DNA of 64,000 bases from assembly GCA_944392775.1 (NCBI GenBank), contig CALXXV010000003.1, positions 61,279 to 125,278 of the forward strand. The letters are read 5' to 3'. The stretch comes from an uncultured Alphaproteobacteria bacterium (GTDB lineage: Bacteria > Pseudomonadota > Alphaproteobacteria > Rs-D84). The notes beneath the pieces were generated by a model that was not told the origin of the DNA, did not search any database, and saw nothing but the letters and a program-made list of their open reading frames with translations. Shown piece after piece: positions 7,727-54,643 of this stretch; the first letter of the stretch is position 1, and the number at the start of each line of letters is the position of its first letter. Position numbers and translations under genes: made by a program.

Positions 7727-7739
7727 TTTGCTTCCTTTG

Positions 7740-8231
7740 TTATTTTATACTTTCTGCCCATGTCTTGAGTTCATTTTCGCTGACACTTGCCGAAAAGCGT
7801 CTGCCATTTATTATTTCTGGGTTGCCTGTTGCGTCTTTCTGTAAATCTGACGCAGTATCTCCAAGACCGCTACTGCCAGATGTTGCGAACAATATTACTT
7901 TCTTCCCCGACAGGTCATAACTCTTTACAAACTGATTTACTATTTTAGGAGACGTTCCCCACCATATCGGGAAACCCAAAAATATTGTATCATAGTTTTT
8001 AACAGGTGCCTTCAAATCCGCTAATTCGGGGTACGGCAACATATTAGCCATTTCCAAAGAAGAACGACTGTTTTCATCATTCCAATTCAAATCTGCATCA
8101 GTATAAGGTTGCGCCGGTTGTATCTCATAAATAGGTGCATTCAATGCTGACGCCAATTTTTGTGCAACATTTGCCGTCGTTCCTGTCGCAGAAAAATATG
8201 CAATAAGAACAGAAGATAAAATGCTATTCAT
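7740..8231 (-). CDS. Flavodoxin-like protein
   Basis: IAYFSATGTTANVAQ flavodoxin FMN-binding N-terminus. Confidence 0.65.
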   Translation of the reverse strand: MNSILSSVLIAYFSATGTTANVAQKLASALNAPIYEIQPAQPYTDADLNWNDENSRSSLEMANMLPYPELADLKAPVKNYDTIFLGFPIWWGTSPKIVNQFVKSYDLSGKKVILFATSGSSGLGDTASDLQKDATGNPEIINGRRFSASVSENELKTWAESIK

Positions 8232-8859
8232 TTACCCCCCCTTGGTTACTTAATAGTGAAAATATTGTTTGATACGCAAAGTCATAAACTCTTTTGGTTG
8301 GAAATTTTATACCAGCAGAAGTCATCGCATCTTTTTGTTTTTGCGTAACATTTGCATAAGGATAAAGCCCAAACATAAATGGAAAGAATATATATATGAA
8401 CTTATTTATATCTGTCCTGCCCTTTTGCGGGAAGTATACCACCAATAAATGTTCTACGGTGTCCAAAGCACGCTTGTATTCTTGCTTAAACACTGTCAGT
8501 TCATCTAAAGAACAACTTTCTTCTAAATCGTATAAATTCATAGAAAGCAATTTTAATAGTACAGGACGATTTTCCAAGGTCTGAGCCAATTTACTTGAAA
8601 AATCTTTGACGCTTAGTTTTTTATATTTTTTTACAATGCGATCCATATCATCGCACCAAAAGGCATATTCTTCACGAAAGATTTCCAGAAAAATACTTTC
8701 TTTTGTCGTAAAATAATTATAAATAGAAGGTCTAGAAAAACTTGTATATTCACTGATTTCTTTAATTGTAATTTCTTTAAAAGACATAGTCTGATATAAC
8801 TCACGACAGGCATGTACTATTTCAGACTTTCTTTTATCGGTATGCGATAAAGATTCCAT
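8224..8859 (-). CDS. TetR-family transcriptional regulator
   Basis: HTH SRPSIYNYFTTKESIF. Start adjusted to MESLSH (RBS GAAAGGAAAGGGGA) so that the operators lie upstream. Confidence 0.75.
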   Translation of the reverse strand: MESLSHTDKRKSEIVHACRELYQTMSFKEITIKEISEYTSFSRPSIYNYFTTKESIFLEIFREEYAFWCDDMDRIVKKYKKLSVKDFSSKLAQTLENRPVLLKLLSMNLYDLEESCSLDELTVFKQEYKRALDTVEHLLVVYFPQKGRTDINKFIYIFFPFMFGLYPYANVTQKQKDAMTSAGIKFPTKRVYDFAYQTIFSLLSNQGGVNE

Positions 8860-8876
8860 AAAGTCCCCTTTCCTTT

Positions 8877-8918
8877 CTGACACAATGTCAGAATATCACA
8901 AAAACTGACACAGTGTCA
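8877..8918. promoter_or_regulatory. Two palindromic operator-like sites, CTGACACAATGTCAG (8877-8891) and TGACACAGTGTCA (8906-8918), upstream of the tetR operon
   Basis: Near-perfect 13-15 nt palindromes, 27 nt apart, immediately 5' of the TetR gene. Confidence 0.55.
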
Positions 8919-9689: not shown

Positions 9690-9745
9690 TTATAAATACT
9701 TTTATAAAAACAAATATGCTATAATTATTTCCAAAGGAAGCCATT

Positions 9746-10723
9746 ATGAAGGAAAAGACCAAACTTTTTCAAAGCTCTGCTGAAAAATTAAAGCAAAATT
9801 TAGAAATAACTAATGCCAAAGAACAAGTTCAATTATTAAAAAAATATAAACTAGAAAAAAACAAAGAAATTAAAGAAAAAATATATAACGAACTTTCTTT
9901 TGAAGTAAAACTATTATTAAAAAATTTTAAACCAGAATATATAATAAAAAAATTGGAAAAAGCTATTCAATTAGATGATTTTCGCCCTAGGAATTTATCA
10001 ATTTACACTTTTGCGATGGATCCCGATTTAAATTATGTAAATGGAGAATTTTCTACTTTTGATGAATTTTTATCTGCCATGATAAGAAACAATGAAAACC
10101 CAAATAAAGTTAGAAAATATGCCGCAAAAGAAATTTATAATAGAATAAACGTTGCTAAACAATACGCAAATGACATAAATAAAATCTTGGACGAATATCC
10201 AGCACAAAAAAAACAAGCCTTAAATTCTTACATAATCGAAAACACAAATGCATATACAAATTTATTACAAACGATATCTGATAAACTATGTGAAGATTTA
10301 AAAATTGTAGATAGACCAATAATAAAAGTTATAGATTTTTGGGACGAGCTGCCCAAATATTTCCCAAAATTAAACAATACAGAAACATTATATGGAATAC
10401 ATTTTTCTTATAAAATCCCAGGCGAAACTAAATATCACACAGAAATATATATAGCAAGACAAATGCTATATAACTATATAGACAAAAAAACGAAAAAAGA
10501 ATTATTTAAAGAAATAATTTCAACTTTTGCCCATGAGTTCGGTCATGCAGTTGATAATTTACAGGCCAACAAAGGTGCATTAGGTAACCAAAAAGCTAAC
10601 ATTGGGAAAAAAATTTATGTTCAAGCAAGTGCAGATAAAGAGAAACAATATCATACGAATCCTACTGAAGTTAGTTCAGAAACTATATATAATGAAGTTT
10701 TGAAATCTTTAGATCGAATATAA
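9746..10723 (+). CDS. Lys-rich hypothetical protein with a zinc-metallopeptidase HExxH motif (FAHEFGHAVD); effector-like
   Basis: HEFGH motif near the C-terminus. No signal peptide. Confidence 0.5.
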   Translation: MKEKTKLFQSSAEKLKQNLEITNAKEQVQLLKKYKLEKNKEIKEKIYNELSFEVKLLLKNFKPEYIIKKLEKAIQLDDFRPRNLSIYTFAMDPDLNYVNGEFSTFDEFLSAMIRNNENPNKVRKYAAKEIYNRINVAKQYANDINKILDEYPAQKKQALNSYIIENTNAYTNLLQTISDKLCEDLKIVDRPIIKVIDFWDELPKYFPKLNNTETLYGIHFSYKIPGETKYHTEIYIARQMLYNYIDKKTKKELFKEIISTFAHEFGHAVDNLQANKGALGNQKANIGKKIYVQASADKEKQYHTNPTEVSSETIYNEVLKSLDRI

Positions 10724-13274: not shown

Positions 13275-13408
13275 AACAAGACAAAAACCAACATTTCCTA
13301 AGACAAGAACCTTTTCCTAAATACAGCATTGCGATTGAAAGCTAATAAAAAACTGTATATAATTATTTTGTCTTAGGACAAAAACAAAATTTCTAAAAGG
13401 AGAAAGAG

Positions 13409-13621
13409 ATGAGAGGATTTACAGATTACGTTCTGAAACCATTGACTTTTATAGGCGCTCTAAATTGGGGGTTAATCGGTATATTCGGTTTCGATTTAGT
13501 CGCATTTATATTCGGCCCAGGAACTCTGGCCAGCAGCATTGTATACAGTCTTGTTGGTATTGCCGCACTTATATGGTTAATATGGATGTTCATAAATAAA
13601 AGCGATAATAGTGAAAAATAA
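13409..13621 (+). CDS. DUF378-family small membrane protein
   Basis: MRGFTDYVLKPLTFIGALNWGLIGIFGFDLV; strong RBS AAAGGAGAAAGAG. Confidence 0.6.
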   Translation: MRGFTDYVLKPLTFIGALNWGLIGIFGFDLVAFIFGPGTLASSIVYSLVGIAALIWLIWMFINKSDNSEK

Positions 13622-13640: not shown

Positions 13641-13668
13641 CGCGCCCTTATATCAGGGCGCTTTTTAT
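13641..13668 (+). terminator. Rho-independent terminator GCGCCC-TTATATCA-GGGCGC-TTTTT
   Basis: GC stem plus T-tract after the DUF378 gene. Confidence 0.6.
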
Positions 13669-13809: not shown

Positions 13810-15333
13810 ATGAAAATTATCATTCAGGCAGGCGGTCTGGGATCCAGAATGAAAGCGTTGACACACGTAAAACCCAAAAGTCTAATTTCTGCAAAATATA
13901 TGCCAATAATATTTCATCTGTTTAAGAAATATCCAAATGATGAATTCATAATAATCGGAGATTATAAATTTGACGTACTAGATAGATACTTATCTACGTT
14001 CGCCAAAAACGTAAATTATATGCTAATAAAATCAACAACAAAGGGAAATGCCGCAGGAATAAAAGAAGCGGTATCCTATATACCAGATAATGAACCGTTT
14101 ATGATAATATGGTCCGACATTATATTATCAGATACCTTTTATATAAATGAAATTACCAAGGGTTGCCAAGTAGGTTTAGTAGATTTCCATTGTTCTTGGA
14201 GCTTAAAAAATGGGACTTTAATAAACGAAAGCATCCCAGGTAAAGGTGTAGCCGGATTATATATTTTTGATAATAAAAGTTGGTTTGACGACTTTCCTAT
14301 AGAAGGTTCTTTTACAAATTGGCTGGCAGAAAAAAACATACCTTTAACCCCAATATCTTTAATGGGTAGCATAGATGTAGGAACTTTAGAAGCTTATAAC
14401 GAAATTTCAACGACCCTAAATCGCTGTAGACCTTATAATAAAATAGAATTTATCGACGGTAAAGTCGTAAAAACAGGTCTAACCAAAGAAGCGGAAAAAC
14501 TAATTGAACGAGAAATCGTGTGGTATAAAAAAATGGAAATGTGTGGTTTTGAGGCCATACCTAAAATATATAACACCAATCCACTAACTATGGAACTAAT
14601 TCGTGGAAAAAATATATTCCTTACAGAAATGGATGATGCAAATAAAAAAGAAACCATTCGTAAAATGGTTCATGCTTTACAAACTATGCATGGTTACGAA
14701 AAATCGTCCGCTTCTGCATGGGATTTATATACCGAATACTTAAAAAAAACAATTCACAGACTGCAAAGCATAATTTTCGCAATTCCTTTCGGAAACGAGC
14801 AATTTATAAAAATCAACGGAAAAAAATGTAAAAACATAATGTGCAATATAGATATTTTAAGACAGGCCGTCTTAAAAAATTTAATGACAACATATTATGG
14901 TCCAATTCATGGTGATTGCCAACTTACAAACACAATGATTGATGATTGTGGAAAAATATTCTTTATTGACGCACGTGGCTATTTCGGCAAAAGCCAAGTC
15001 TTAGGAGATGTTAGATATGATTGGGCAAAAATGTATTACGCCATACACGGTAATTTTGACCAATTTAACGTAAAAAGATTTACTCTTGATATTTCAGATC
15101 AAGAAGTTTCTTTCGATATCCATAGTGGAGGCTGGGAACATCTAACTGAATATTTCTTAAACCTTATACCCAAAGAAGAAGCAAGCGTAAAAGAAATAAA
15201 ACTTATACATGCAATAATATGGCTATCTTTAGCTTCGCATGCTTGGGAAGACTATGACTCTATGTGTATAGCGTTTTATAACGGAACCTTTTTATTTAAC
15301 GAATGGTTATCGGAGTACGAAAATGAACAGTAA
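13810..15333 (+). CDS. Bifunctional sugar-1-phosphate nucleotidyltransferase (N-terminal) fused to an APH/choline-kinase-fold sugar kinase (C-terminal). LicC-LicA-like or MurU-AmgK-like fusion
   Basis: N-terminal MKIIIQAGGLGSRM NTP-transferase motif. C-terminal Brenner motif IHGDCQLTN and FIDARGYFG. Confidence 0.65.
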   Translation: MKIIIQAGGLGSRMKALTHVKPKSLISAKYMPIIFHLFKKYPNDEFIIIGDYKFDVLDRYLSTFAKNVNYMLIKSTTKGNAAGIKEAVSYIPDNEPFMIIWSDIILSDTFYINEITKGCQVGLVDFHCSWSLKNGTLINESIPGKGVAGLYIFDNKSWFDDFPIEGSFTNWLAEKNIPLTPISLMGSIDVGTLEAYNEISTTLNRCRPYNKIEFIDGKVVKTGLTKEAEKLIEREIVWYKKMEMCGFEAIPKIYNTNPLTMELIRGKNIFLTEMDDANKKETIRKMVHALQTMHGYEKSSASAWDLYTEYLKKTIHRLQSIIFAIPFGNEQFIKINGKKCKNIMCNIDILRQAVLKNLMTTYYGPIHGDCQLTNTMIDDCGKIFFIDARGYFGKSQVLGDVRYDWAKMYYAIHGNFDQFNVKRFTLDISDQEVSFDIHSGGWEHLTEYFLNLIPKEEASVKEIKLIHAIIWLSLASHAWEDYDSMCIAFYNGTFLFNEWLSEYENEQ

Positions 15334-15718
15334 AGAAATTAGATTGTCCAAATTACAACATACTTGGATCCTAGATTTTGATGGAACTTTAGTAAAACAT
15401 AACGGATATAAAGACGGCATTAATAACATAGACGAATGGTTGCCAGGCGCATTGGAATTTCTACGTAATATACCAGAGAACGATTATATTTTAATTTTAA
15501 CCGCCAGAGAAGATAACACTAATGTAAGACAACGAACTATAAAATTTATCAAAGATGCAGGTATAAGATTTAATGATATTAAATTTGGTATCCCAATGGG
15601 TGAAAGGATTTTGTTTAACGACAATAAACCTAGTGGCTTATGTTGCGCCCATGTGTATACACCTGAAAGGAACCAAGGTCTAAAAAATCTTTCCGTAATA
15701 TTTGATAACAATTTATAA
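15323..15718 (+). CDS. HAD-superfamily phosphatase, small HAD-IIIA/GmhB-like
   Basis: Motif I DFDGTL, ILTAR, NDNKPSG. Confidence 0.6.
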   Translation: MNSKEIRLSKLQHTWILDFDGTLVKHNGYKDGINNIDEWLPGALEFLRNIPENDYILILTAREDNTNVRQRTIKFIKDAGIRFNDIKFGIPMGERILFNDNKPSGLCCAHVYTPERNQGLKNLSVIFDNNL

Positions 15719-15732
15719 AACAAGGATAAATC

Positions 15733-16629
15733 ATGCAAATACTTAAACCTATCGTACACGAAACTATATGGGGGGGGAATAAACTAACGCCCTATTCCGG
15801 ATCAGACTGCAAAAAAATAGGCCACTTATATTCAGCAATTGATACAGCAGATTTTAAAAATGAAATCATTTACGGTAAAGACAAAGGAAAAAATCTTCAT
15901 GAATGGTTCTTGGAAAATCGTGACAAATACGGTTTAAGCAACTATCAAGAACTTCCTATATTAATGGCACTGGTAGAAGCAGATGACGATCTTTCAATAC
16001 AGGTACACCCCGACGATGACAAAGCAAAAGAGCTAGAAAATAAACCATTTGGTAAAAATGAATCTTTTTATACATTACAGGCGCCTAAAAAGGGCTGGAT
16101 GTATAATGGTTGCAAAGCTAAGTCTGTAGAAGAAATGCGTACCAAAATAAAAGAAGGTAAAATATCAGAAACATTGGATACAATGCCTTGTTCTGTCGGA
16201 GATTACATTTATATCGTAGGTGGAACTTTACATGCAGCCACCGCAGGTTCCATACATTTTGAAATAGAAGAAAACTGCGAAAAAACCTATAGATTTTATG
16301 ACTATGACAGAGTTGATAAAAACGGGGAAAAACGTCCATTACAATTGGATAAAGCTTTAGCATGTTTAGATGTAAACAAAAAATCTTCTATTCGTCATTA
16401 TAAAAAAGGTGAACCCATTGAAGAAAGAATGTATTCTACGGAATTAGTAAAAGATGTAGATGTTTTTGAAAATAACGGCAATATGTTCGCCTTTGCCGTT
16501 TTACTAAACGGAGAAAAAGAAATTGATGGAATAAAAATTTTCCCGGGTACCGCAATTCTTTTAGACCCTAAAGAAAAATTAGATGTTTCAAATTGCGAAT
16601 TTATAATTGCCAAACCCAAAAGAGCATAA
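15733..16629 (+). CDS. manA: Class I mannose-6-phosphate isomerase (cupin)
   Basis: ETIWGG, LSIQVHPDD zinc-site motif, YRFYDYDR. Confidence 0.7.
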   Translation: MQILKPIVHETIWGGNKLTPYSGSDCKKIGHLYSAIDTADFKNEIIYGKDKGKNLHEWFLENRDKYGLSNYQELPILMALVEADDDLSIQVHPDDDKAKELENKPFGKNESFYTLQAPKKGWMYNGCKAKSVEEMRTKIKEGKISETLDTMPCSVGDYIYIVGGTLHAATAGSIHFEIEENCEKTYRFYDYDRVDKNGEKRPLQLDKALACLDVNKKSSIRHYKKGEPIEERMYSTELVKDVDVFENNGNMFAFAVLLNGEKEIDGIKIFPGTAILLDPKEKLDVSNCEFIIAKPKRA

Positions 16630-16630
16630 T

Positions 16631-17284
16631 ATGAAAGTAAAAGTATTGTGTCCTTCTATTATGTGTGCTGATTTTGGTAGCTTTCGTTCAGAAATTGCGC
16701 AAATGGACGCTGCAGGTATAGATCAATATCATATGGATATAATGGACGGAGAATTCGTACCTAACTTTGCGCTATCTTGGGCAGATTTTGCGGCAGTTAG
16801 AAAAATGACAGAAAAACCTTTAGATGCACACTTAATGGTAAAAGACCCAAGCATACACTTACCTTATGCATTTAAATATGGGGCAGATATAATATACGTA
16901 CATTTTGAATCTGGAAATGCAGCTAAACATTTATACGAAATAAGAAAAAACGGTAGAAAAGTCGGTCTTGCCATAAACCCAGAAACAAGTATAGAAAAAG
17001 TACAAACTCTTTTCCCGATAATTGATTCTTTATTAGTAATGCGGGTTCATCCAGGATTTTCAGGTCAAATTGCTATACCAGAAGTTGAAGAAAAGCTAGA
17101 TAAATTGGCAAAAATAAAAAATAGAAAATTTTCAATACGTTTAGATGGTTGTGTATCACCAGACGTAATTGACAAATGGGCAAAACTGGGTATAGAAGAA
17201 TTCGTATGTGGAACAGCTTCTGAAATGTTCGGGGAAAAAAGAGGCAATCGTTCTTATAAAGAAATAATAGATATTTTAAGGTAA
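16631..17284 (+). CDS. Ribulose-phosphate 3-epimerase-family protein (Rpe/AlsE-like hexulose- or pentulose-phosphate 3-epimerase)
   Basis: HMDIMDGEFVPN, DAHLMV motifs. Start set at MKVKV. Confidence 0.65.
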   Translation: MKVKVLCPSIMCADFGSFRSEIAQMDAAGIDQYHMDIMDGEFVPNFALSWADFAAVRKMTEKPLDAHLMVKDPSIHLPYAFKYGADIIYVHFESGNAAKHLYEIRKNGRKVGLAINPETSIEKVQTLFPIIDSLLVMRVHPGFSGQIAIPEVEEKLDKLAKIKNRKFSIRLDGCVSPDVIDKWAKLGIEEFVCGTASEMFGEKRGNRSYKEIIDILR

Positions 17285-17291
17285 TTTAATC

Positions 17292-18218
17292 ATGAAAAAA
17301 TTTTTTGTAAACGCAGTATGTTCTTTTATTCCATCTAAAACTCATAGAGATTATCTAAGACAAAAAATGATGTATAATCCAATAAATAATATACAAGAAC
17401 AAATAGATAATATAAAAAAAGAGCTAAATAACGCTATAACAAAAATAGATGACGCAGCAACAAAAACAGAAGTATCAAAGATTGAAAAATCTTTATGGCA
17501 ATCAATTACACCACCATTACCCCCAACGGATTATTCTTTCAATGGGCAAAACAACAAACTGCTAGTCTGGGATAAAGAAAAATCAGAATATATTGAAACA
17601 ACAAAAATTATACCGGGTTTATTTTTAAACATAGAAGGTAACAATAATACAATAAAAATCAAAGCTCCAGAAATAATTGAAAGATTAGAACTAACAATGT
17701 TAGGTGATAATCATAAATTCTCTTTAGGCGATTTTACAAACAAGATATATGATAAAAAAATAACTTATCTTATTATATTTATGACTTGCGGAGATTGCGA
17801 ATTAACAATTGGCGACAATCTTGTTGTCAATCCAATGGTTATAATCCACATGTGTGAACGTGGCGTAAAATGCTTTATAGGAGACAACGTGCGATTGGCC
17901 GCAGAATCAAAAATATACGTAAGTGATGCCCACCCAATAATAGATATAGAAAAAAACAAAATAATAAACTATGGCGATTGCAAAAGAGTTTTAAAAATAG
18001 GCAACAACTGTTGGATAGGAACCGGCTGTTTTATAGGCAAAAGCGCCAATCTACCGGACTATACAATCGTCGCAGCACAAAGCAATGTTGTTAAACCATT
18101 TGACGAATCTTACACAGTTATAGGTGGCAATCCTGCACACGTCTTAAAAAGAGGTGTAAAAAGAATTGATACGTGGGAAGAAGCTTTTGAAATAACTAAC
18201 AGTAAAATTAAAGGGTAA
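17292..18218 (+). CDS. Hexapeptide-repeat (left-handed beta-helix) acyl/acetyltransferase with an N-terminal extension
   Basis: Repeated [LIV]GxxxxI hexapeptides: IGDNLVV..., FIGDNV..., KIGNNCWIGTGCFIG. Confidence 0.6.
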   Translation: MKKFFVNAVCSFIPSKTHRDYLRQKMMYNPINNIQEQIDNIKKELNNAITKIDDAATKTEVSKIEKSLWQSITPPLPPTDYSFNGQNNKLLVWDKEKSEYIETTKIIPGLFLNIEGNNNTIKIKAPEIIERLELTMLGDNHKFSLGDFTNKIYDKKITYLIIFMTCGDCELTIGDNLVVNPMVIIHMCERGVKCFIGDNVRLAAESKIYVSDAHPIIDIEKNKIINYGDCKRVLKIGNNCWIGTGCFIGKSANLPDYTIVAAQSNVVKPFDESYTVIGGNPAHVLKRGVKRIDTWEEAFEITNSKIKG

Positions 18219-18222
18219 CACT

Positions 18223-19335
18223 ATGAAAAAGGTAAAAATAAGATTTGTAAATGGAGATAAAATAAGACGCTTTTATGTTTTTAACAAACCCCTTTTTCAA
18301 TATATGAGAAAAAACGGTAGGTTAAAAATAGAAATGTGTAAAAAAAGAAAACCTAAACCGGGTCAAAGAGTATTTTATTTAAAAGTTCATCGCGTTCATC
18401 AAACTAGTTTCGATTGCATACAACATTGGTTAGACATTATAGCGAGAATGGATGCCTTTGTTTATTTTGTTTGTGATAACAAACAAATGTGGAAAGGAAT
18501 TTTTAAAAAACCATGTTTTTTTTATAACCAAGATTTTGATTTTATAAAAAGTGACAGAAAAACGTTAAAAAAAGAAATACCTTTGATTTTACATAACGTA
18601 ATAAGACAAAAATTATGGCATAGAATTGCTTATTCAATGATGACGCCTTTTGTACACGCTGCTAAACATAATTATTCACGAACGTATAATATAGACGCAG
18701 ACGATATAATGATTCTTACAAAACCAGAATTAATTGCGGAAGGGTTAAAAAAAGCCGAATTTTATGCCGAAGAAAATGATCTTGATTGTTTTAATTTTGA
18801 TATGTTCGTTTCAAAATCTTTCGGTGTACATTGGTCTTTCGGTATAGTTTATGTACGCAAACCACAAAAATGTTTGAATATAATAAAAGAAAATATCGGA
18901 TGGCGCTATAATGAATACTTAATAAAAAAATATTCTACTTATTATGTAAACGAATTTAATTTTAACGTCGATTGGCTATTTACTTTTCTAAGAGACACCC
19001 AACAATTAAACTTAAAAACGTTTTATATAGAAGGTTCTATGGTAATTCATATGCCTGATATAGCTATTTCCAGACATTGGGCTTTCGTTCTTAAATGGAA
19101 AGATGGCACCCTTTATTTACCTGTTCTGGAAAGATTATATAACGATAAAACATGGCGTAACATCCCAATATTTAAAAATTGTATAAAAATTGATATCGGT
19201 CTTACAGATGAATGCGTCTCGGATTTCTTAAATGAATTCTATATGACAGATTATGTTTTTGAAAATAGCATATTAAATATAGCAAAAGAAAGAAGACTTA
19301 TTTCAAACACAATGTATCAAAAATATATAAGCTAG
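18223..19335 (+). CDS. Hypothetical protein in the glycan cluster (possible glycosyltransferase)
   Basis: Context only. Confidence 0.35.
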   Translation: MKKVKIRFVNGDKIRRFYVFNKPLFQYMRKNGRLKIEMCKKRKPKPGQRVFYLKVHRVHQTSFDCIQHWLDIIARMDAFVYFVCDNKQMWKGIFKKPCFFYNQDFDFIKSDRKTLKKEIPLILHNVIRQKLWHRIAYSMMTPFVHAAKHNYSRTYNIDADDIMILTKPELIAEGLKKAEFYAEENDLDCFNFDMFVSKSFGVHWSFGIVYVRKPQKCLNIIKENIGWRYNEYLIKKYSTYYVNEFNFNVDWLFTFLRDTQQLNLKTFYIEGSMVIHMPDIAISRHWAFVLKWKDGTLYLPVLERLYNDKTWRNIPIFKNCIKIDIGLTDECVSDFLNEFYMTDYVFENSILNIAKERRLISNTMYQKYIS

Positions 19336-19352
19336 AAACGTTAGAGGAAAAC

Positions 19353-20498
19353 ATGTCACTTTGTCGGATGTTTTTTTATAAAAAAATATGCCGTAATAAC
19401 CCTTGGGCCCAAGAAGATATTTTTTATATTTTGTTTGGCATATTTCGTTTAAAAAAAACATCCCTAGGTGGCAAAGATTTGCGCCTACTGGGAATAAGAA
19501 TTTTTGTACAAAAAATACAATGCCATTATAAAATAACAAAATTTTTTGGGATCACATTTTATAGACAAAATTTACAAAAAAAACTTTTAAAAAAAATATT
19601 TAAAAAATTACCAAAACAATTTAAAGATATTTATATCATACGCCACAATATAGGAGAAAGTTATATATATCTTACCCATTTAAAAGCTTGGATTTCAGCA
19701 AACAAAAGTAAAAAACCATTACTCGTAATATGGCAAAAAAAATATAAGTCCTTTTATAAAATGTTTGCAGACAAACAAATCGCTATGAAGTACATAGATA
19801 TAAAACAAAACGATATTCAATCTGCTCTGGATTCTGAAATAATACATTACAAAGGAAGAACTATATTTTGCCCTACTCCAAATATAGGGAATGCTATAAA
19901 TTCATTATTTGAAAAAGATGAAAAAACAAATTTTTATTCTTACATCTGTAAAGATTTTAATCTAACTAAAAAAGCCAATATACAAAAGCCTAAAAATTCC
20001 TATAAAACCGATAGCCTAATAAATAATAAAATTAAAAAACATATAAAACTGCCATTTGTAATAATACTGCCTTTCGCAAAATCTTTATCGGAATTGTCGG
20101 AAGATTTTTGGACAAGATTAGTATCGGAATTTAAGAAAAAAGGTTACGATGTATTCATAAACGGAAATACAACGACTTTATCAGAACGACTTAAAGAAAA
20201 TACCGTAAATTTTAAAACAGATCTTTCAGAAATATTTGCCTTAGCAAAAAAATCCTCTGGGATCATAGGTCTTGCTTCGGGTTTATCTGTATTTTTAACA
20301 GCAAGTAATCGCCCAATGGATTTAATATACACTCAATTTAAAGTTTTTGAACCGCAAATATCATCTGGACAAGTTATGAAATTATATTCCGTTCATCACT
20401 TACCTAATGTAAAAGGAAACGTTAGAGAGTACGACATACAAAAATATTCAGAATCACAATTAATAAACAAAATTATCAAAAACTATAAAAAACAATAA
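19353..20498 (+). CDS. Hypothetical Lys-rich protein in the glycan cluster (possible glycosyltransferase). N-terminal ~100 codons are low-complexity and contain A8/T8 tracts, so the true start is uncertain
   Basis: Context. Homopolymer tracts at 19373-19395, 19448-19456, 19575-19610. Confidence 0.3.
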   Translation: MSLCRMFFYKKICRNNPWAQEDIFYILFGIFRLKKTSLGGKDLRLLGIRIFVQKIQCHYKITKFFGITFYRQNLQKKLLKKIFKKLPKQFKDIYIIRHNIGESYIYLTHLKAWISANKSKKPLLVIWQKKYKSFYKMFADKQIAMKYIDIKQNDIQSALDSEIIHYKGRTIFCPTPNIGNAINSLFEKDEKTNFYSYICKDFNLTKKANIQKPKNSYKTDSLINNKIKKHIKLPFVIILPFAKSLSELSEDFWTRLVSEFKKKGYDVFINGNTTTLSERLKENTVNFKTDLSEIFALAKKSSGIIGLASGLSVFLTASNRPMDLIYTQFKVFEPQISSGQVMKLYSVHHLPNVKGNVREYDIQKYSESQLINKIIKNYKKQ

Positions 20499-20513
20499 AA
20501 GTCAGGTCTTTCT

Positions 20514-22298
20514 ATGAAAACACCTAATAAAATAAAAAATCGCATAGCAAATAATATGTTTGTAAAAAATTACAAACGTATGTGGCCGTACATAAAACCA
20601 TATTGGTTTCCTGGTTTAATGTCATTAGTAATAACTATTCCTATAGGATCTTTGGATGCAGTAATTGCTTTGTCATTAAAACCTTACATGGATTTAGTTA
20701 TGGTTGAAAAATCGGTACAAACTGCGTGGTATATACCACTTGCCATAATAGCTTTTACCTGTATTCAAGGCGGGTTAACTTATGCCGCAAATTATTTAAA
20801 TACGTGGGTCGGTGCAAAAATAACAAACTTGTTAAAACTTGACCTTTATAAAAAAATGTTAGATTTTGAAACAAACTTCTTTAATACAAGAAATTCAGGC
20901 GACATAATATTTATGTTCAATAATAACGCAGATCTAGCCTGCGCAGGTCTGCTTACAAATCTTAAAAACTTTGTACAAAAACTATTTACAGCAATATTTC
21001 TTATCGCGGTATTGTTTTATAATTCTTGGCAACTTGCTTTTTTATGCGTTGCTATTCTAATAGGTGCGTTTTTACCAATGAGTTCTCTTAGAAAAAAAAT
21101 AGACTCGGTAATGAGTCAATCTATTGCGGCAGACGCAGCATTATTAACGGCATATAACGAATCTTATTCTGGAAACAAAACTGTAATATCTTATAACCTG
21201 TCCGAACACCAAAAAGGAAAATTTAATAACGTTCTTGATGGCGTTTTTCGCCTAAAAATAAAAATGTTACAAAAAACCAGATGGCTTACCCCTGTAATGC
21301 ATGTAATTCTTTCCGTTGGTATCGGTTTATCAATTTGGTTCGGGTCTTTCTTGATATTAAATGGAGAAATCTCAGCCGGTAATTTTGTATCTTTTTTAAC
21401 CGCACTTGTCATGCTTTATACCCCTATGAAAAGTATAGGATCAAATTATAATTCTGTTTTAATGTCTTTTATGGCAATAGATAGGGTATTTGACATATTA
21501 AATACTACCCCTGCAATAACGGATAAACCAAACGCTAAAGAAATGCCAAAACACCATAAAACAATAGAATTTAAAAACATAGGCTTTGAATACACACATA
21601 ATGTTCCCGTTCTTAAATCAATAAACCTTACGGTAAGACAGGGCGAAACTATTGCATTAGTTGGAAATTCTGGTGGCGGGAAAACAACACTTGTAAATTT
21701 ATTACCACGCTTCTATGACGTTACAAATGGTCAAATTTGCATTGACGGTACAGATATAAGAGATTTTACCTTGCAATCATTACGACAAAATATAGGGGTC
21801 GTATTTCAAGACAATTTCTTATTTGCAGGAACAATCCGAGAAAACATTATGCTGGGGAACAAAAACGCAACAGAAGAAGAATTAAACAACGCAGTAAAGA
21901 TGGCATATCTTGATAACTTCGTTTCTAGTTTAAAAGACGGTCTAGACACAGAAATTGGTGAACGTGGTATATTGCTATCAGGCGGCCAAAAACAAAGAGT
22001 TGCAATTGCTAGGGCTTTTTTAAAAAACGCCCCTATATTAGTATTAGATGAAGCAACATCCGCACTTGATAATCGCGCAGAGTCGGTTGTTCAAAAAGCA
22101 ATAGAAAACCTGATGCACGACAAAACAGTGTTTGTAATTGCTCACAGATTATCAACGATCAGAAACGCATCAAAAATAGTTGTTATAAATAACGGAGAAA
22201 TAGTAGAAACAGGAACCCATGAAGAACTTATAAACCTAAAATGTGGCGCATATAAAACTTTATACGACATGCAATTCAAAGACAATGATAGAAAATAG
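20514..22298 (+). CDS. ABC transporter, fused permease-ATPase (MsbA-like lipid/glycolipid exporter)
   Basis: Six-TM N-terminus. Walker A GNSGGGKTT, signature LSGGQKQRVAIARA, Walker B ILVLDEATSALD. Confidence 0.8.
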   Translation: MKTPNKIKNRIANNMFVKNYKRMWPYIKPYWFPGLMSLVITIPIGSLDAVIALSLKPYMDLVMVEKSVQTAWYIPLAIIAFTCIQGGLTYAANYLNTWVGAKITNLLKLDLYKKMLDFETNFFNTRNSGDIIFMFNNNADLACAGLLTNLKNFVQKLFTAIFLIAVLFYNSWQLAFLCVAILIGAFLPMSSLRKKIDSVMSQSIAADAALLTAYNESYSGNKTVISYNLSEHQKGKFNNVLDGVFRLKIKMLQKTRWLTPVMHVILSVGIGLSIWFGSFLILNGEISAGNFVSFLTALVMLYTPMKSIGSNYNSVLMSFMAIDRVFDILNTTPAITDKPNAKEMPKHHKTIEFKNIGFEYTHNVPVLKSINLTVRQGETIALVGNSGGGKTTLVNLLPRFYDVTNGQICIDGTDIRDFTLQSLRQNIGVVFQDNFLFAGTIRENIMLGNKNATEEELNNAVKMAYLDNFVSSLKDGLDTEIGERGILLSGGQKQRVAIARAFLKNAPILVLDEATSALDNRAESVVQKAIENLMHDKTVFVIAHRLSTIRNASKIVVINNGEIVETGTHEELINLKCGAYKTLYDMQFKDNDRK

Positions 22299-22304: not shown

Positions 22305-23327
22305 TTATTTTTGATATAAATTCCACAGGTAATCAAACTGCTTGGTAAAGGCTTTATCTTCTTGCTCAAAAAACATACAATTTTCTGCGTTTGATTCCGT
22401 CGCACTTTCTGTCCAGTTATAGCTACCGCTTTCTATTCTTTTTCCGTCAAATACAGCAAACTTATTATGCATTATCTTATGACCAGTATTTGTTATAACA
22501 GGAATTCCAGCTGATTCAATTTCATCAACCAACGAATACTTGCCTTTTGATTGCAACCTATCTGTAATTACTCTTATTTTTGCGCCACGTTCTTTGGCAT
22601 CTATTATCGCATCAACTATATTCTGGTTGGTGATAGAATATACTGCAATGTCTATCTTCTTTGCCTGATTGATTTCGGCAATTATATTATTTTCACATTC
22701 GGAACCTGGGGTAAAGTAAATTTCTATCCACTTTTTATCAGAAACAGCAGCGACAGGATCTTGTATATAATCGGTTTCAATCTCTTTATTATCCTTACCG
22801 AACAATTTTTTCCAGAAAGAAACTTTATCATCGTTTTTTATTTTCAACCCCAGCGTATCATATACCTGACGTTCAAAATCACTTCCTTTTTGTGCAATTA
22901 ACAATAAAATTTCTTCGTCGTCCTTTCTGGCGATTACCAAAGTATCACCGGCATACGCTGCCCGCATAACATCGTTTTTACGATAGTATAATTTATACTT
23001 ACGATTTCCATTTAATGATTTCGGTGTATAATAATACCAAGTTGTTTCACCCTCATGTTCAATTTCTTTATCACCTTTATACACAAACTGGGTATCATAA
23101 TAAACTTTATCAGCTCCAAGTACATTTATAAGTGCTTTAGTCCCTTGAATTTCTACGCTGGTACTATTATTGCCTTTATACAAAGAATCATTCTTTGCAA
23201 GCGTTTTTACCGCAATGGTTGAATATTTCGCTAAATCTGAAACATTAAAAGCCAAAACTTGTACGGGAATTAAAAACAAAAAAATTCCCATAGACAATTT
23301 CACGAAAAATCGTCCGACTATTTTCAT
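22305..23327 (-). CDS. Secreted phospholipase-D-superfamily protein with a single HKD motif (Nuc-like nuclease or PLD)
   Basis: HNKFAVFDG...GSYNWT HKD motif. N-terminal hydrophobic signal. Confidence 0.6.
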   Translation of the reverse strand: MKIVGRFFVKLSMGIFLFLIPVQVLAFNVSDLAKYSTIAVKTLAKNDSLYKGNNSTSVEIQGTKALINVLGADKVYYDTQFVYKGDKEIEHEGETTWYYYTPKSLNGNRKYKLYYRKNDVMRAAYAGDTLVIARKDDEEILLLIAQKGSDFERQVYDTLGLKIKNDDKVSFWKKLFGKDNKEIETDYIQDPVAAVSDKKWIEIYFTPGSECENNIIAEINQAKKIDIAVYSITNQNIVDAIIDAKERGAKIRVITDRLQSKGKYSLVDEIESAGIPVITNTGHKIMHNKFAVFDGKRIESGSYNWTESATESNAENCMFFEQEDKAFTKQFDYLWNLYQK

Positions 23328-23349
23328 ATACTGTATTATTTTACACAAA

Positions 23350-24228
23350 TCACATATTTTGCAAGTGCAAAAGAACTTGTTCGGACACCAAACGGACGCA
23401 ATCAGGTATTATGCCATTACCAAGTTGTTTTCTTATTCGTGACGACGATAAATCTTCGGGGAATACAAACGTATCCGGCAACCCCATTACTTTTTTCGTT
23501 TCCGATAGTGTTATTTCATGTTCAATGCCATCAACCAAATAAGACATCCAATTATAAGGTTCTTTATATCTTTTATGGTTATGCGCCGTTAATATCGTAT
23601 ATCCAACATCTCTATTACAAGTTTTGCAATTAAAAACATCATGCATAGTAAATTTTAATGGTACGGGGTCTGGAAACCTAAACGTACTGGTTTCCTGATT
23701 TTCACCCAGAAACCCAACCATAAAGACCCGTTGTCTTATTTGCGGTATGCCACAATCACAACCTTTGATTACTTTATAATGAAACGAATAACCGGCGTTT
23801 CTAAACAAGTCGTGAATTATGCGAAAACTTCTGCCTCCTTCTGCCGTCAGCAATCCTTTTACATTTTCTAAAATAAACGCTTTTGGCATGCATTGTTTTA
23901 TTATATTCAAGACATAAAAGAACATATTACCTTTATCGTCTTTGTCGTCTTTCAGACCTTTACGAAGTCCAGCCATAGAAAACGACTGGCACGGCGGACT
24001 GCCGACCAAGATATCAAATTCGGGAATATCACTTGGATTAAGCTCACGAATATCCGTTGGATAATTATTATTTCTAACGCAAGGCAGGTCTGGAAAGTTT
24101 GCAAGAAAGGTCTGACGGGCATATTTATCAATTTCGCACGATAAAACATTTTCCATTGGCAAGTCTTGCAGTCCCAGTTCCCAGCCACCGATACCAGAAA
24201 ACAAGTTTATATATTTATATTTTTGCAT
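23350..24228 (-). CDS. DNA (cytosine-5)-methyltransferase (orphan; no cognate REase evident)
   Basis: INLFSGIGGWELG, GSPPCQSFSMAG, ENVKGL. Start adjusted to MQKYKY with RBS AAGGAG. Confidence 0.8.
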   Translation of the reverse strand: MQKYKYINLFSGIGGWELGLQDLPMENVLSCEIDKYARQTFLANFPDLPCVRNNNYPTDIRELNPSDIPEFDILVGSPPCQSFSMAGLRKGLKDDKDDKGNMFFYVLNIIKQCMPKAFILENVKGLLTAEGGRSFRIIHDLFRNAGYSFHYKVIKGCDCGIPQIRQRVFMVGFLGENQETSTFRFPDPVPLKFTMHDVFNCKTCNRDVGYTILTAHNHKRYKEPYNWMSYLVDGIEHEITLSETKKVMGLPDTFVFPEDLSSSRIRKQLGNGIIPDCVRLVSEQVLLHLQNM

Positions 24229-24369
24229 GAAGGCTCCTTGAGAATAAAAAAGCCCGCTATAAAACGCAGGCAAAGAAAAAACGGGCGACAATGCCGTCCG
24301 TTTTATGCAAATCAGTATATCATATTTTTTATAAAAAATCAAACAAAAAACAAAAAACCGCAGAAGTCT

Positions 24370-29090: not shown

Positions 29091-29130
29091 TTTTTTGGTG
29101 CTTTTATGTTATAATCACATGCATGATTTA

Positions 29131-29160: not shown

Positions 29161-29190
29161 AAAATCAACTATCAACTAAAGGATTTTATT

Positions 29191-54626: not shown

Positions 54627-54643
54627 TTTTGCTCCTTTTTTTA

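What the first reader, a model, noticed from the sequence alone, without database searches (positions are those of the whole stretch)
13810..22298. Glycan cluster encoding a phosphomutase-independent route to a nucleotide sugar (fused NTase-anomeric kinase, HAD phosphatase, PMI, RPE-like epimerase)
Consecutive co-oriented genes: a fused sugar-1-P nucleotidyltransferase/APH-fold kinase, a small HAD-IIIA phosphatase (start overlaps the fusion gene), class I mannose-6-P isomerase, an RPE/AlsE-family 3-epimerase, a hexapeptide acyltransferase, two unknown putative transferases and an MsbA-like exporter. No phosphomanno- or phosphoglucomutase is present. By analogy with MupP-AmgK-MurU (MurNAc recycling) and LicA-LicC, the logic would be: hexose-6-P (made by PMI and/or the 3-epimerase, possibly a rare 3-epimer such as a psicose/allulose-derived sugar), then phosphatase, then anomeric kinase, then NDP-sugar, then transfer, O-acetylation and export. 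This would be an unusual way to make a surface glycan precursor.
Basis: inference. Interest (0 to 1): 0.65.

Follow-up and report, generated by a model that had tools for sequence, protein, structure and literature searches.

The report
Mutase-free rare nucleotide-sugar pathway island
A gut bacterium carries an eight-gene surface-glycan operon that seems to activate a rare sugar without a phosphomutase, reusing enzymes recently shown in phages to make UDP-arabinofuranose but fed by two different upstream enzymes, so the product is probably a different, still unidentified sugar.

Summary
Window 13810-22298 (+) is a tight eight-gene operon: a nucleotidyltransferase/APH-fold kinase fusion, a 131-aa capless HAD, a PMI-like isomerase, an RPE/AlsE-family 3-epimerase, a hexapeptide acyltransferase, an unknown protein, a GT9-like glycosyltransferase and an MsbA-like exporter.

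The fusion is a full-length homologue (27-36% identity) of the phage enzyme typified by AfhE and RB69 gp52:53. As summarised in PMC13326640, AfhE phosphorylates D-arabinose-5-P at C1 and also makes UDP-arabinose. The HAD partner AfhF removes the 5-phosphate from the 1,5-bisphosphate in between. By that homology the likely order here is kinase, then phosphatase, then nucleotidyltransferase, not phosphatase first.

Fusion, HAD, PMI-like and RPE-like genes co-occur in 39 loci across many gut and rumen lineages. A sister clade, and 60 of 80 viral loci, carry an arabinose-5-P isomerase instead; no viral locus has PMI or RPE.

The sugar is unresolved. D-altrose (from fructose-6-P through allulose-6-P) is my leading candidate and D-lyxose the runner-up.

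Verdict: a new cellular variant of a recently described kind of pathway.

The parts
13642..13661 (+). Intrinsic-terminator-like hairpin ending the upstream small membrane ORF (13409-13621). It marks the 5' boundary of the operon.
   Evidence: 7-bp stem, 6 G-C pairs, T-run; sequence.
13810..15333 (+). Bifunctional fusion (507 aa). The N-terminal domain is a sugar-1-P nucleotidyltransferase (residues ~1-190). The C-terminal domain is an APH-fold kinase (residues ~200-507). It is an AfhE-type enzyme, predicted to act as a sugar-phosphate C1-kinase and an NDP-sugar pyrophosphorylase.
   Evidence: NTase. (APH fold; invariant H-G-D...N...D). (27-36% full-length identity to phage homologues, including RB69 gp52 and JS10). 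Function of the phage enzyme from PMC13326640.
15323..15718 (+). Small capless HAD phosphatase (131 aa; DFDGT, LTAR and NDxKPSG motifs). Predicted to remove the distal (C5/C6) phosphate from the sugar bisphosphate, as AfhF does.
   Evidence: It is 53% identical to the HAD that follows the fusion in Synechococcus phage S-SRM01. It is present in 56 of 67 related loci.
15733..16629 (+). PMI-like cupin aldose-ketose isomerase (298 aa). Predicted to convert the epimerised ketose phosphate into the aldose phosphate.
   Evidence: The QVHP / NES / T[LMI]HA metal-ligand motifs are conserved in 42/42 orthologues. It always accompanies group-A fusions and is never found in group B or in viral loci.
16607..17284 (+). 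RPE/AlsE-family ketose-phosphate 3-epimerase (the ORF is called from TTG 16607; the probable start is ATG 16631).
   Evidence: AlsE-like states at four motif positions in all 39 orthologues.
17292..18218 (+). Hexapeptide-repeat (LbH) O-acyltransferase-like protein with an uncharacterised ~170-aa N-terminal region. An accessory gene.
   Evidence: Found in only 8-9 related loci.
18223..19335 (+). Unknown 370-aa protein with an invariant N-I-D-A-D-D motif. Possibly a DxD-type transferase; the fold was not determined.
   Evidence: no Pfam, NCBIfam or PDB match. Orthologues in 14 loci, next to the cassette.
19353..20498 (+). GT-B glycosyltransferase with a GT9 (heptosyltransferase)-like fold. This family is the near-universal partner of the fusion and is predicted to be the cognate transferase for the NDP-sugar.
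   Evidence: pLDDT 87.7. (WaaF 1psw 4e-8, WaaC, TibC).. The family is present in 54 of 67 loci, often directly upstream of the fusion.
20514..22298 (+). MsbA-like half-size ABC exporter (594 aa). Predicted to be the flippase for the lipid-linked product.
   Evidence: TIGR02203 510 bits, below the cut-off of 602. Copies 62-64% identical sit next to the cassette in Melainabacteria/Gastranaerophilales loci L018, L057 and L056.

Best explanation
This is a horizontally mobile surface-glycan (probably LPS/LOS-type) operon. It builds a nucleotide-activated rare sugar by a bisphosphate route that needs no phosphomutase.

Inferred steps:
1. The AlsE-like 3-epimerase inverts C3 of a central ketose phosphate. 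Fructose-6-P to D-allulose-6-P is my leading candidate.
2. The PMI-like cupin isomerase converts the product to the aldose phosphate. With PMI's stereochemistry that would be D-altrose-6-P. Its C2-C4 configuration equals that of D-arabinose.
3. The C-terminal APH-fold kinase domain of the fusion phosphorylates C1, giving the 1,6- (or 1,5-) bisphosphate.
4. The small HAD removes the distal phosphate.
5. The N-terminal nucleotidyltransferase domain makes the NDP-sugar. The nucleotide is probably UDP, by homology.
6. The GT9-like GT-B transferase, and possibly the 370-aa protein, transfer the sugar. The hexapeptide enzyme acylates it. The MsbA-like transporter flips the lipid-linked product.

What rests on what:
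- Steps 3-5 rest on homology to an enzyme pair reported as characterised in phages (AfhE/AfhF). I could read that work only in secondary summary.
- Steps 1-2 and the sugar identity are inference.
- Step 6 rests on fold and gene neighbourhood only.
For: - Homology to the phage enzyme. The fusion aligns end to end with phage homologues: 377 phage records; S-SRM01 35.6% identity, E 9e-87; JS10 27% over 536 aa, E 2e-30; RB69 gp52 kinase part 28%, E 4e-23. PMC13326640 reports that HY126 AfhE is a D-arabinose-5-P kinase plus UDP-arabinose pyrophosphorylase. It also reports that AfhF is the Mg-dependent HAD converting Araf-1,5-P2 to Araf-1-P.
- Same gene order in phages. Phage loci run SIS isomerase, fusion, HAD.
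- Conserved cassette. Fusion, HAD, PMI and RPE co-occur, co-oriented, in 39 loci. These come from Alphaproteobacteria, Gastranaerophilales, Akkermansia, Sutterella, Mailhella, Selenomonas, Lachnospiraceae and Campylobacteraceae.
- Mutually exclusive front ends. The sister clade (~40% identity) has a KpsF/GutQ-type arabinose-5-P isomerase directly after the fusion in 13 loci and no PMI or RPE. Of 80 viral loci, 60 have the SIS isomerase and none has PMI or RPE. So PMI + RPE occupy the slot of the sugar-phosphate isomerase.
- Epimerase character. All 39 orthologues carry AlsE-like rather than RPE-like residues at SxMC, GF[A/S]GQ, DG[A/C/S] and GT. The gene is never missing where the contig is complete.
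- Isomerase is probably active. PMI metal ligands are conserved in 42/42 orthologues.
- Kinase is not choline-specific. It has an APH fold and is about equidistant from LicA, APH(2''), MTR kinase and maltokinase. Only 2 of 55 members touch the Pfam Choline_kinase model.
- Transferase. It has a GT9-like fold, and its family is found in 54 of 67 loci.
Against: - No activity was measured.
- The primary phage paper (He et al. 2026) is not in the held library. I rely on a secondary summary. Table 1 of that same paper still lists the alternative order (phosphatase on Ara5P, then kinase on free arabinose).
- The window HAD shows no detectable sequence similarity to the T4-like phage HAD gp51. It is similar only to the cyanophage one.
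- Identity to the characterised type of phage enzyme is only ~27%, so substrate and nucleotide specificity cannot be transferred.
- The epimerase scores equally against AlsE (3ct7, 5.9e-37) and RPE (1tqj, 6.7e-37) and is below both equivalog cut-offs. Two of the four AlsE-marker positions listed in PMC12216980 are not in the AlsE state.
- Glycan clusters often carry redundant housekeeping genes. The constant presence of the epimerase therefore does not prove a non-housekeeping reaction.
- The acceptor, the lipid carrier and the final glycan are unknown.
Confidence: 0.6

Rival explanations
1. Same bisphosphate route, but a pentose. The RPE-like enzyme makes xylulose-5-P from ribulose-5-P. The PMI-like enzyme converts it to D-lyxose-5-P (xylulose-5-P is fructose-6-P shortened by one carbon, and lyxose matches mannose in the same way). 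The product is an NDP-D-lyxofuranose, or a xylofuranose.
For: The homologous kinase of phages acts on a pentose-5-phosphate (PMC13326640), and probably so does that of the sister clade. The epimerase passes the RPE subfamily model NF004076 (172.6 against 165). It keeps the RPE state at some positions: mostly N in VNPG, and L in the LLVM segment.
Against: Xylulose-5-P is made by every cell's housekeeping RPE, yet the cassette epimerase is retained in all 39 complete loci. Its phosphate-loop motifs are AlsE-like, never GFGGQ or DGG. The lyxofuranose ring differs from arabinofuranose at C3, whereas altrofuranose does not.
Confidence: 0.25
2. The HAD first dephosphorylates the sugar 6-phosphate to the free sugar. 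The APH-fold domain is then an anomeric kinase on the free sugar, followed by nucleotidyl transfer (MupP-AmgK-MurU logic).
For: Precedent exists (PMC5371407, listed). APH-fold anomeric kinases of free sugars are known, such as MTR kinase and maltokinase, which appear among the fold hits. Table 1 of PMC13326640 still annotates DLP3 gp81/gp82 in this order.
Against: The text of PMC13326640 reports that AfhE acts as an arabinose-5-phosphate kinase and AfhF acts on the 1,5-bisphosphate. The HAD is a 131-aa capless type, like GmhB, KdsC and Pnkp-type enzymes that act on larger phosphorylated substrates, and unlike the capped MupP type. The MurU equivalog score is 31 bits against a cut-off of 250.
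Confidence: 0.18
3. The product is the same as in phages (UDP-D-arabinofuranose). The PMI-like enzyme would be a non-orthologous replacement of arabinose-5-P isomerase acting on ribulose-5-P, and the RPE-like enzyme would only boost ribulose-5-P supply.
For: The C2 stereochemistry of PMI matches arabinose. PMI + RPE and the SIS isomerase are mutually exclusive partners of homologous fusions.
Against: This needs two genes where one suffices. The epimerase would be redundant, yet it is never lost. The fusions of the two clades are only ~40% identical and form separate groups, which suggests different substrates.
Confidence: 0.12
4. A LicC/LicA-type pathway. The kinase phosphorylates choline, ethanolamine or another amino alcohol. 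The NTase makes the CDP-alcohol for phospho-substituent transfer. PMI and RPE would be unrelated neighbours.
For: The domain order matches LicC-LicA fusions. LicA is nominally the top structural hit (E 1.7e-6). One related locus (L001) has a LicD gene.
Against: Only 2 of 55 members weakly hit Pfam Choline_kinase, against 47 of 55 for APH. LicA identity is 13-15% and no better than APH(2''). The window has no LicB or LicD. The fusion is homologous over its full length to the phage sugar enzyme. It is strictly linked to sugar-phosphate isomerases in 39 + 13 + 60 loci.
Confidence: 0.03

Closest known systems
Phage UDP-D-arabinofuranose pathway for arabinosyl-5-hydroxycytosine DNA. It comprises arabinose-5-P isomerase, AfhE (bifunctional Ara5P kinase / UDP-Ara pyrophosphorylase) and AfhF (HAD phosphatase). 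Equivalents are RB69 gp55, gp53:52, gp51 and DLP3 gp83, gp82, gp81 (He et al., Nat Chem Biol 2026, as summarised in PMC13326640).
   Same: - The fusion has the same two-domain architecture (NTase then kinase).
- It shows significant full-length sequence similarity (27-36% identity).
- A small HAD gene lies adjacent.
- A sugar-phosphate isomerase gene lies adjacent.
- No mutase is needed.
   Different: - The isomerase here is a PMI-type cupin plus an AlsE-like 3-epimerase, not a SIS-type arabinose-5-P isomerase. No viral locus has these.
- The setting is a cellular glycan operon with a GT9-like transferase, an acyltransferase and an ABC exporter, not DNA hypermodification.
- The HAD is not detectably similar to the T4-like phage HAD.
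- The predicted sugar is different.
Nucleotide-heptose pathway: GmhA (isomerase), HddA/HldE (kinase), GmhB (HAD 1,7-bisphosphate 7-phosphatase), HddC/HldE (nucleotidyltransferase).
   Same: - Identical chemical logic: ketose-P, aldose-P, 1,n-bisphosphate, aldose-1-P, NDP-sugar.
- The HAD is capless.
- The NTase domain has weak hits to HddC (PDB 6jq8 and 5xhw).
- The transferase has a heptosyltransferase-like fold.
   Different: - The isomerase is a cupin, not SIS.
- The kinase has an APH fold, not GHMP or ribokinase-like.
- An additional 3-epimerase is present.
- Every equivalog score is far below its cut-off. This is an analogue, not a member.
MupP-AmgK-MurU (MurNAc recycling) and LicA-LicC (phosphocholine).
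   Same: An APH-fold kinase is paired with a small NTP_transferase-family nucleotidyltransferase. In the MurNAc case a HAD phosphatase is also involved, and no mutase is needed.
   Different: - In those pathways the kinase acts on an unphosphorylated substrate.
- No equivalog threshold is met (MurU 31 bits against 250).
- The fold similarity to LicA is generic (13-15% identity).
- The cassette is linked to sugar-phosphate isomerases instead.
E. coli AlsE (D-allulose-6-P 3-epimerase, PDB 3ct7) and Bacillus subtilis class I PMI (PDB 1qwr).
   Same: These are the best solved relatives of the two front-end enzymes (5.9e-37 and 2e-31). Catalytic and metal residues are conserved. The epimerase shares AlsE states in its phosphate-loop motifs.
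   Different: AlsE and ManA are catabolic or central enzymes. Here both score below their equivalog cut-offs (156.5 against 271; 61.8 against 116.2). They are also locked into a biosynthetic cassette.

Membership tests
AfhE/AfhF-type bisphosphate route to an NDP-sugar (phage UDP-D-Araf pathway) | One polypeptide with an N-terminal sugar-1-P nucleotidyltransferase and a C-terminal protein-kinase-like/APH-fold kinase | tested here: met
AfhE/AfhF-type bisphosphate route to an NDP-sugar (phage UDP-D-Araf pathway) | Sequence homology of the fusion to the phage enzymes (RB69 gp52:53 and relatives) | tested here: met
   (377 phage records, 364 of them covering at least 80% of the query). (JS10, 27% over 536 aa, E 2e-30). 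(RB69 gp52, 28%, E 4e-23). HY126 itself was not checked individually.
AfhE/AfhF-type bisphosphate route to an NDP-sugar (phage UDP-D-Araf pathway) | Adjacent small Mg-dependent HAD phosphatase homologous to AfhF / gp51 | tested here: inconclusive
   A HAD is adjacent and is 53% identical to the HAD of cyanophage S-SRM01. Its profile shares the PDB neighbour 1xpj with DLP3 gp81. There is no detectable sequence similarity to RB69 gp51.
AfhE/AfhF-type bisphosphate route to an NDP-sugar (phage UDP-D-Araf pathway) | SIS-type arabinose-5-phosphate isomerase as the supplier of the sugar phosphate | tested here: not met
   No SIS protein is in the operon. Its place is taken by PMI-like and RPE-like genes.
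AfhE/AfhF-type bisphosphate route to an NDP-sugar (phage UDP-D-Araf pathway) | Kinase acts on the sugar phosphate, the HAD acts on the bisphosphate, and UTP is the nucleotide donor | not testable with these tools
   Needs enzyme assays.
LicC/LicA phosphocholine activation | Kinase domain belongs to the choline/ethanolamine kinase family | tested here: not met
   Pfam Choline_kinase was hit weakly by 2 of 55 family members, against 47 of 55 for APH. The LicA structural hit has 13-15% identity, equal to APH(2'').
LicC/LicA phosphocholine activation | Companion LicB transporter and/or LicD phosphocholine transferase | tested here: not met
   None is in the window operon. LicD was seen in only one related locus.
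MupP-AmgK-MurU | NTase is a MurU equivalog | tested here: not met
   NF045761 scores 31.4 bits against a cut-off of 250.
GDP/ADP-heptose pathway (GmhA, HddA/HldE, GmhB, HddC) | SIS isomerase GmhA, GHMP or ribokinase-type kinase, GmhB, HddC at equivalog level | tested here: not met
   HddC scores 28 bits against 300. GmhB gives E ~1.2-1.4. The kinase has an APH fold. The isomerase is a cupin.
Class I mannose-6-phosphate isomerase (ManA) | Family-level membership and metal-ligand residues | tested here: met
   Pfam PMI_typeI_cat scores 31.5 against 22. 1qwr gives 2e-31. Motifs are conserved.
Class I mannose-6-phosphate isomerase (ManA) | ManA equivalog score (same function) | tested here: not met
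   TIGR00218 scores 61.8 bits against 116.2.
Ribulose-phosphate 3-epimerase family | Family membership and catalytic His/Asp/Met residues | tested here: met
   Pfam gives 8e-48. NF004076 scores 172.6 against 165. HxDxMDG and DxHLMV are conserved.
Ribulose-phosphate 3-epimerase family | Equivalog of housekeeping Rpe (TIGR01163) or of AlsE (NF007266) | tested here: not met
   Rpe scores 172.8 against 212.6 and AlsE scores 156.5 against 271. Motif states are mixed, leaning to AlsE.
Glycosyltransferase family 9 (heptosyltransferases) | GT-B fold closest to WaaC, WaaF and TibC | tested here: met
Glycosyltransferase family 9 (heptosyltransferases) | Sequence-level membership (Pfam or NCBIfam thresholds) | tested here: not met
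   No Pfam hit. TIGR02193 scores 16.9 bits against 185.
MsbA lipid A flippase | ABC_membrane + ABC_tran architecture, and the equivalog score | tested here: inconclusive
   The architecture is met. TIGR02203 scores 510.3, below its cut-off of 602. Copies 62-64% identical travel with the cassette in another phylum, which argues for a cassette-specific exporter.

The most novel reading that the evidence does not exclude
The cassette makes a nucleotide sugar I found no report of. The candidates are UDP-D-altrose (possibly the furanose, the hexose homologue of UDP-D-arabinofuranose) or an NDP-D-lyxofuranose. Members of a new GT9-like transferase family would then install it on envelope glycans. 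The whole module would have spread by horizontal transfer among gut and rumen bacteria of at least six phyla. A sister module reaches methanogen-related archaea and viruses.
Probability: 0.5. Interest if true: 0.75.

Novelty: new variant of a known kind. Interest (0 to 1): 0.62.

Why it matters
If the prediction holds, many gut and rumen microbes decorate their envelopes with a rare sugar that standard glycan and pathway annotation misses. These include Akkermansia, Sutterella, Selenomonas, Lachnospiraceae, Melainabacteria and uncultured Alphaproteobacteria. All four core genes are currently labelled with generic or misleading names.

- It would extend the kinase / HAD / nucleotidyltransferase bisphosphate strategy from heptoses and phage DNA arabinosylation to a modular system. 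In that system, swapping the front-end isomerase changes the sugar.
- It would give glycoengineers a compact four-gene route from central metabolites to a rare NDP-sugar.
- It would point to a surface epitope relevant to phage receptors and host immunity.
- The question can be tested directly with four recombinant enzymes.

Tried and rejected
- Sequence search of the kinase domain alone against PDB found nothing. Only the fold search placed it, and that could not separate choline, aminoglycoside and sugar kinases.
- Profile searches for the 370-aa protein found nothing in Pfam, NCBIfam or PDB.
- Five literature searches found no description of the PMI + RPE cassette. They covered a capsule or cellular pathway with these enzymes, allulose-6-P with a nucleotidyltransferase, anomeric kinase fusions, UDP-arabinofuranose in bacteria, and altrose or lyxose glycans.
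- The primary AfhE/AfhF paper and the AlsE structure paper are not in the held library.
- A profile comparison of the HAD with RB69 gp51 was negative.
- The JS10 ORF upstream of its fusion, which I first took for the HAD, is unrelated. The real one is the gene mis-annotated as 'phosphoheptose isomerase'.
- PMI-like matches in the phage collection are ordinary ManA genes at ~30% identity on records named for Listeria, Staphylococcus and Enterococcus phages and on faecal contigs. They are probably host-derived sequence, not a viral version of the cassette.
- The promoter scan was uninformative in this AT-rich DNA (45 sites found against 47 expected).
- Housekeeping rpe and manB/pgm could not be checked. 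Only 64 kb of the genome is available, and none was found in the 38 ORFs scanned.

Full report
**1. What is in the sequence**

Window 13810-22298 holds eight co-oriented ORFs on the + strand. Junctions range from an 11-nt overlap to an 18-nt gap. A clean terminator hairpin at 13642-13661 precedes them. A convergent PLD-like nuclease / C5-methylase pair follows them.

| Coordinates | Size | Assignment | Evidence |
|---|---|---|---|
| 13810-15333 | 507 aa | N-terminal sugar-1-P nucleotidyltransferase domain; C-terminal region with HGDxxxxN...IDxRG | |
| 15323-15718 | 131 aa | HAD with DFDGT; weak BT0820-family hit | |
| 15733-16629 | 298 aa | Class I PMI family (Pfam above threshold; B. subtilis PMI 1qwr E 2e-31) | |
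| 16607-17284 | 225 aa | RPE/AlsE family (Pfam 8e-48); probable start ATG 16631 | |
| 17292-18218 | 308 aa | Hexapeptide O-acetyltransferase-like C-terminus | |
| 18223-19335 | 370 aa | No family detected | |
| 19353-20498 | 381 aa | Only a faint heptosyltransferase hit by sequence | |
| 20514-22298 | 594 aa | MsbA-like (TIGR02203 510 bits, cut-off 602) | |

For the C-terminal region of the fusion, 47 of 55 family members hit Pfam APH and only 2 hit Choline_kinase. No phosphomutase family appears in the operon or in 30 further window ORFs.

**2. Origin and distribution**

The fusion protein has more than 1,200 relatives at the 90%-cluster level. It has 165 representative clusters at E <= 1e-30 among 1.84 billion representatives. 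A scan of one genome per species returned 65 loci.

- The nearest loci (87-88% identity, whole operon syntenic, MsbA-like 90-91%) are uncultured gut Alphaproteobacteria MAGs. The window is from such an organism.
- Other carriers are Gastranaerophilales/Melainabacteria, Akkermansia, Sutterella, Mailhella, Selenomonas, Lachnospiraceae, Campylobacteraceae, Helicobacter, Desulfovibrionaceae and Methanomethylophilaceae archaea.
- Identities of 50-60% between phyla point to horizontal spread among gut and rumen microbes.

**3. The conserved cassette**

I called ORFs in the 67 cellular loci and clustered them. Two groups emerge.

- Group A has 42 loci, with fusions at roughly 44% identity to the window or more.
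  - All 42 have the small HAD and the PMI-like gene.
  - 39 have the RPE-like gene. The three without it appear to be cut short by contig ends.
  - In the 39 complete loci all four genes are co-oriented. In 26 they are strictly contiguous in the order fusion, HAD, PMI, RPE.
- Group B has 25 loci, mostly with fusions at 38-44% identity. A few truncated contigs with closer fusions also fall here.
  - It has no complete PMI-like or RPE-like ORF.
  - In 13 loci the gene directly after the fusion is a ~197-aa SIS protein. It matches the KpsF/GutQ arabinose-5-phosphate isomerase family (kpsF 4e-29, KdsD 2e-26).
  - The HAD is present in 14 loci.
- The family of the 381-aa protein is the most constant additional partner. 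It has 104 members in 54 of 67 loci, often ending at the fusion's start codon and sometimes fused into ~760-aa proteins.

**4. The known relative**

A literature search led to Lee et al., NAR 2026 (PMC13326640). That paper summarises He et al., Nat Chem Biol 2026. In phages that carry arabinosyl-5-hydroxycytosine DNA, the reported pathway is:

- ribulose-5-P is isomerised to arabinose-5-P;
- AfhE, with an N-terminal nucleotidyltransferase and a C-terminal kinase, phosphorylates Ara5P to Araf-1,5-bisphosphate;
- AfhF, a Mg-dependent HAD, removes the 5-phosphate;
- AfhE then forms UDP-arabinofuranose.

RB69 gp55, gp53:52 and gp51, and DLP3 gp83, gp82 and gp81, are the equivalents.

The window fusion is a homologue of this enzyme.

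- It matches 377 phage records, 364 of them over at least 80% of its length.
- It is 27% identical over 536 residues to the JS10 protein (E 2e-30).
- It is 28% identical to the RB69 gp52 kinase part (E 4e-23).
- It is 35.6% identical to Synechococcus phage S-SRM01 (E 9e-87). That phage has the gene order SIS, fusion, HAD, and its HAD is 53% identical to the window HAD.
- The RB69 and JS10 loci show the same three genes.

The HAD profile's PDB neighbours are Pnkp1 and 1xpj. 1xpj is also the top hit reported for DLP3 gp81. Direct similarity to RB69 gp51 was not detectable.

**5. What differs**

Among 80 IMG/VR viral loci carrying the fusion, 60 have the SIS/API gene next to it. None has a PMI-like or RPE-like gene. 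PMI-like matches in the phage collection are ordinary ManA at ~30% identity on records named for Listeria, Staphylococcus and Enterococcus phages and on faecal contigs, probably host-derived sequence.

So PMI + RPE occupy, in cellular genomes only, the slot that the arabinose-5-P isomerase occupies elsewhere. They must supply the aldose phosphate on which the kinase acts.

**6. Mechanism**

By homology, the most likely order is epimerase, isomerase, C1-kinase, HAD (distal phosphate), then nucleotidyltransferase. This is the logic of the nucleotide-heptose pathway (GmhA/HddA/GmhB/HddC).

This step order is inferred, not shown. I have only the secondary account of the phage biochemistry, and Table 1 of that paper still lists the other order.

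The kinase model (pLDDT 92) has an APH fold. It is equidistant, at 10-16% identity, from LicA, APH(2''), MTR kinase, maltokinase and glucosamine kinase. The fold alone therefore does not decide the substrate. The gene linkage and the phage homology do argue against choline.

**7. Which sugar?**

Three observations make a hexose my leading candidate.

- (a) In all 39 orthologues the epimerase carries the E. coli AlsE state, not the RPE state, at four motif positions around the substrate and phosphate loops:

| Cassette epimerase | RPE |
|---|---|
| SxMC | SIL[S/A] |
| G[F/H/N][A/S]G[Q/R] | GFGGQ |
| DG[A/C/S/Q] | DGG |
| GT | GS |

- (b) The epimerase is never lost from complete cassettes, although every cell already makes xylulose-5-P.
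- (c) This point is stereochemical inference from textbook configurations. Applying PMI's C2 selectivity to D-allulose-6-P gives D-altrose-6-P. Its C2-C4 configuration is that of D-arabinose. The homologous kinase, HAD and NTase would then see the same ring as their phage and group-B relatives, extended by one carbon.

Several points weigh against this.

- The epimerase scores equally against AlsE and RPE structures.
- It falls below both equivalog cut-offs and passes only an RPE subfamily model.
- It matches only some of the AlsE-clade marker changes listed in PMC12216980.

The pentose alternative is ribulose-5-P to xylulose-5-P to D-lyxose-5-P. A simple replacement of the arabinose-5-P isomerase, giving the same product as in phages, also remains open.

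My estimates are: hexose (altrose or allose) 0.4, lyxose or xylose 0.25, arabinose 0.12, and anything else the remainder.

**8. Downstream genes**

- The 381-aa protein was modelled at pLDDT 87.7. It is a GT-B glycosyltransferase whose nearest structures are the heptosyltransferases WaaF, WaaC and TibC and a GT9 protein. GT9-like phage proteins top the viral structure library. It passes no sequence threshold for GT9. Its near-universal linkage makes it the likely cognate transferase.
- The 370-aa protein has an invariant NIDADD motif and orthologues in 14 loci, but no detectable relatives of known function.
- The acyltransferase is accessory (8-9 loci).
- MsbA-like copies 62-64% identical to the window's lie directly beside the cassette in Melainabacteria loci. 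This suggests an exporter that travels with the island rather than the housekeeping lipid A flippase.

**9. Verdict**

The finding is real. Its central idea, a mutase-independent route to a nucleotide sugar with a rare 3-epimer, is supported by comparative evidence. The proposed step order is probably wrong.

The enzyme core is no longer unprecedented, since it was described in phages in 2025-2026. The epimerase + PMI front end, the cellular glycan context, the GT9-like partner family and the product sugar are not described in anything I could search.

I class it as a new variant of a known kind. Interest is moderately high because it is widespread in gut microbes and can be tested directly.

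Noticed in passing
L040-L053 (Lachnospiraceae), L042 and L046 (Thermoplasmata / Methanomethylophilaceae archaea), L044 and L059-L061, L066 (Helicobacter): A sister clade of the fusion (~38-44% identity) sits in cellular glycan loci. It has a KpsF/GutQ-type arabinose-5-P isomerase and/or the small HAD, plus members of the GT9-like family. This suggests that the phage-type UDP-D-arabinofuranose pathway also serves cell-surface glycans in Gram-positive gut bacteria, Helicobacter and archaea.
   Followed up: partly
L068 (Synechococcus phage S-SRM01, record 190687-202168): In this cyanophage the SIS, fusion and HAD genes lie inside a block of GDP-fucose synthesis genes, fucosyltransferases, GT2 genes and a methyltransferase. 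They are not beside a thymidylate-synthase-like gene. Here the pathway looks glycan-directed rather than DNA-directed.
   Followed up: no
L018, L056, L057 (Melainabacteria/Gastranaerophilales-type loci), about 7090-8889: An MsbA-like gene 62-64% identical to the window's lies immediately upstream of the GT9-like gene and the fusion. That identity is unusually high across phyla, so the exporter appears to be transferred together with the cassette.
   Followed up: partly
window 22305-24342 (-) and 517-4637 (-): Two probable restriction-modification modules. The first, directly downstream of the operon, is a PLD-family nuclease-like protein plus a C5-cytosine methylase. The second is an HNH protein, a dcm-type methylase and an Alw26I/Eco31I-family adenine methylase-like protein.
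   Followed up: no
window 26652-29763 (+): An 812-aa ORF with no Pfam or NCBIfam match is followed by a 243-aa ORF carrying a major-tropism-determinant N-terminal (Mtd_N) domain. This is reminiscent of phage receptor-binding or diversity-generating retroelement targets.
   Followed up: no
window 49644-51804 (+), and 53403-55507 (-): A second small glycan locus (RgpF-like and WbsX-family glycosyltransferases) lies in the lowest-GC patch of the window (28%). Next to it are a phage portal gene and a terminase fragment, so this is possibly a prophage remnant bringing glycan-modifying genes.
   Followed up: no
window 13409-13621 (+): A 70-aa two-helix membrane ORF lies just upstream of the operon, with its own strong promoter-like site (13335-13363, 11 of 12 matches) and terminator. 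From memory it resembles the DUF378 family; I did not test this.
   Followed up: no
L069 (phage JS10) 6653-7051 and L070 (RB69) 9709-10095: The small HAD phosphatase of the T4-like phages is annotated 'phosphoheptose isomerase' in the RefSeq records. In PMC13326640, Table 1 and the main text give opposite step orders for DLP3 gp81 and gp82.
   Followed up: partly
L001, L002, L012 and other group-A loci: Many Firmicutes and Melainabacteria versions of the cassette are flanked by polysaccharide pyruvyl transferases. Some of these are fused to FrhB/ferredoxin-like domains. Radical-SAM proteins, methyltransferases and a conserved ~170-aa protein of unknown family also occur there. This hints that the sugar or glycan is further modified.
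   Followed up: no
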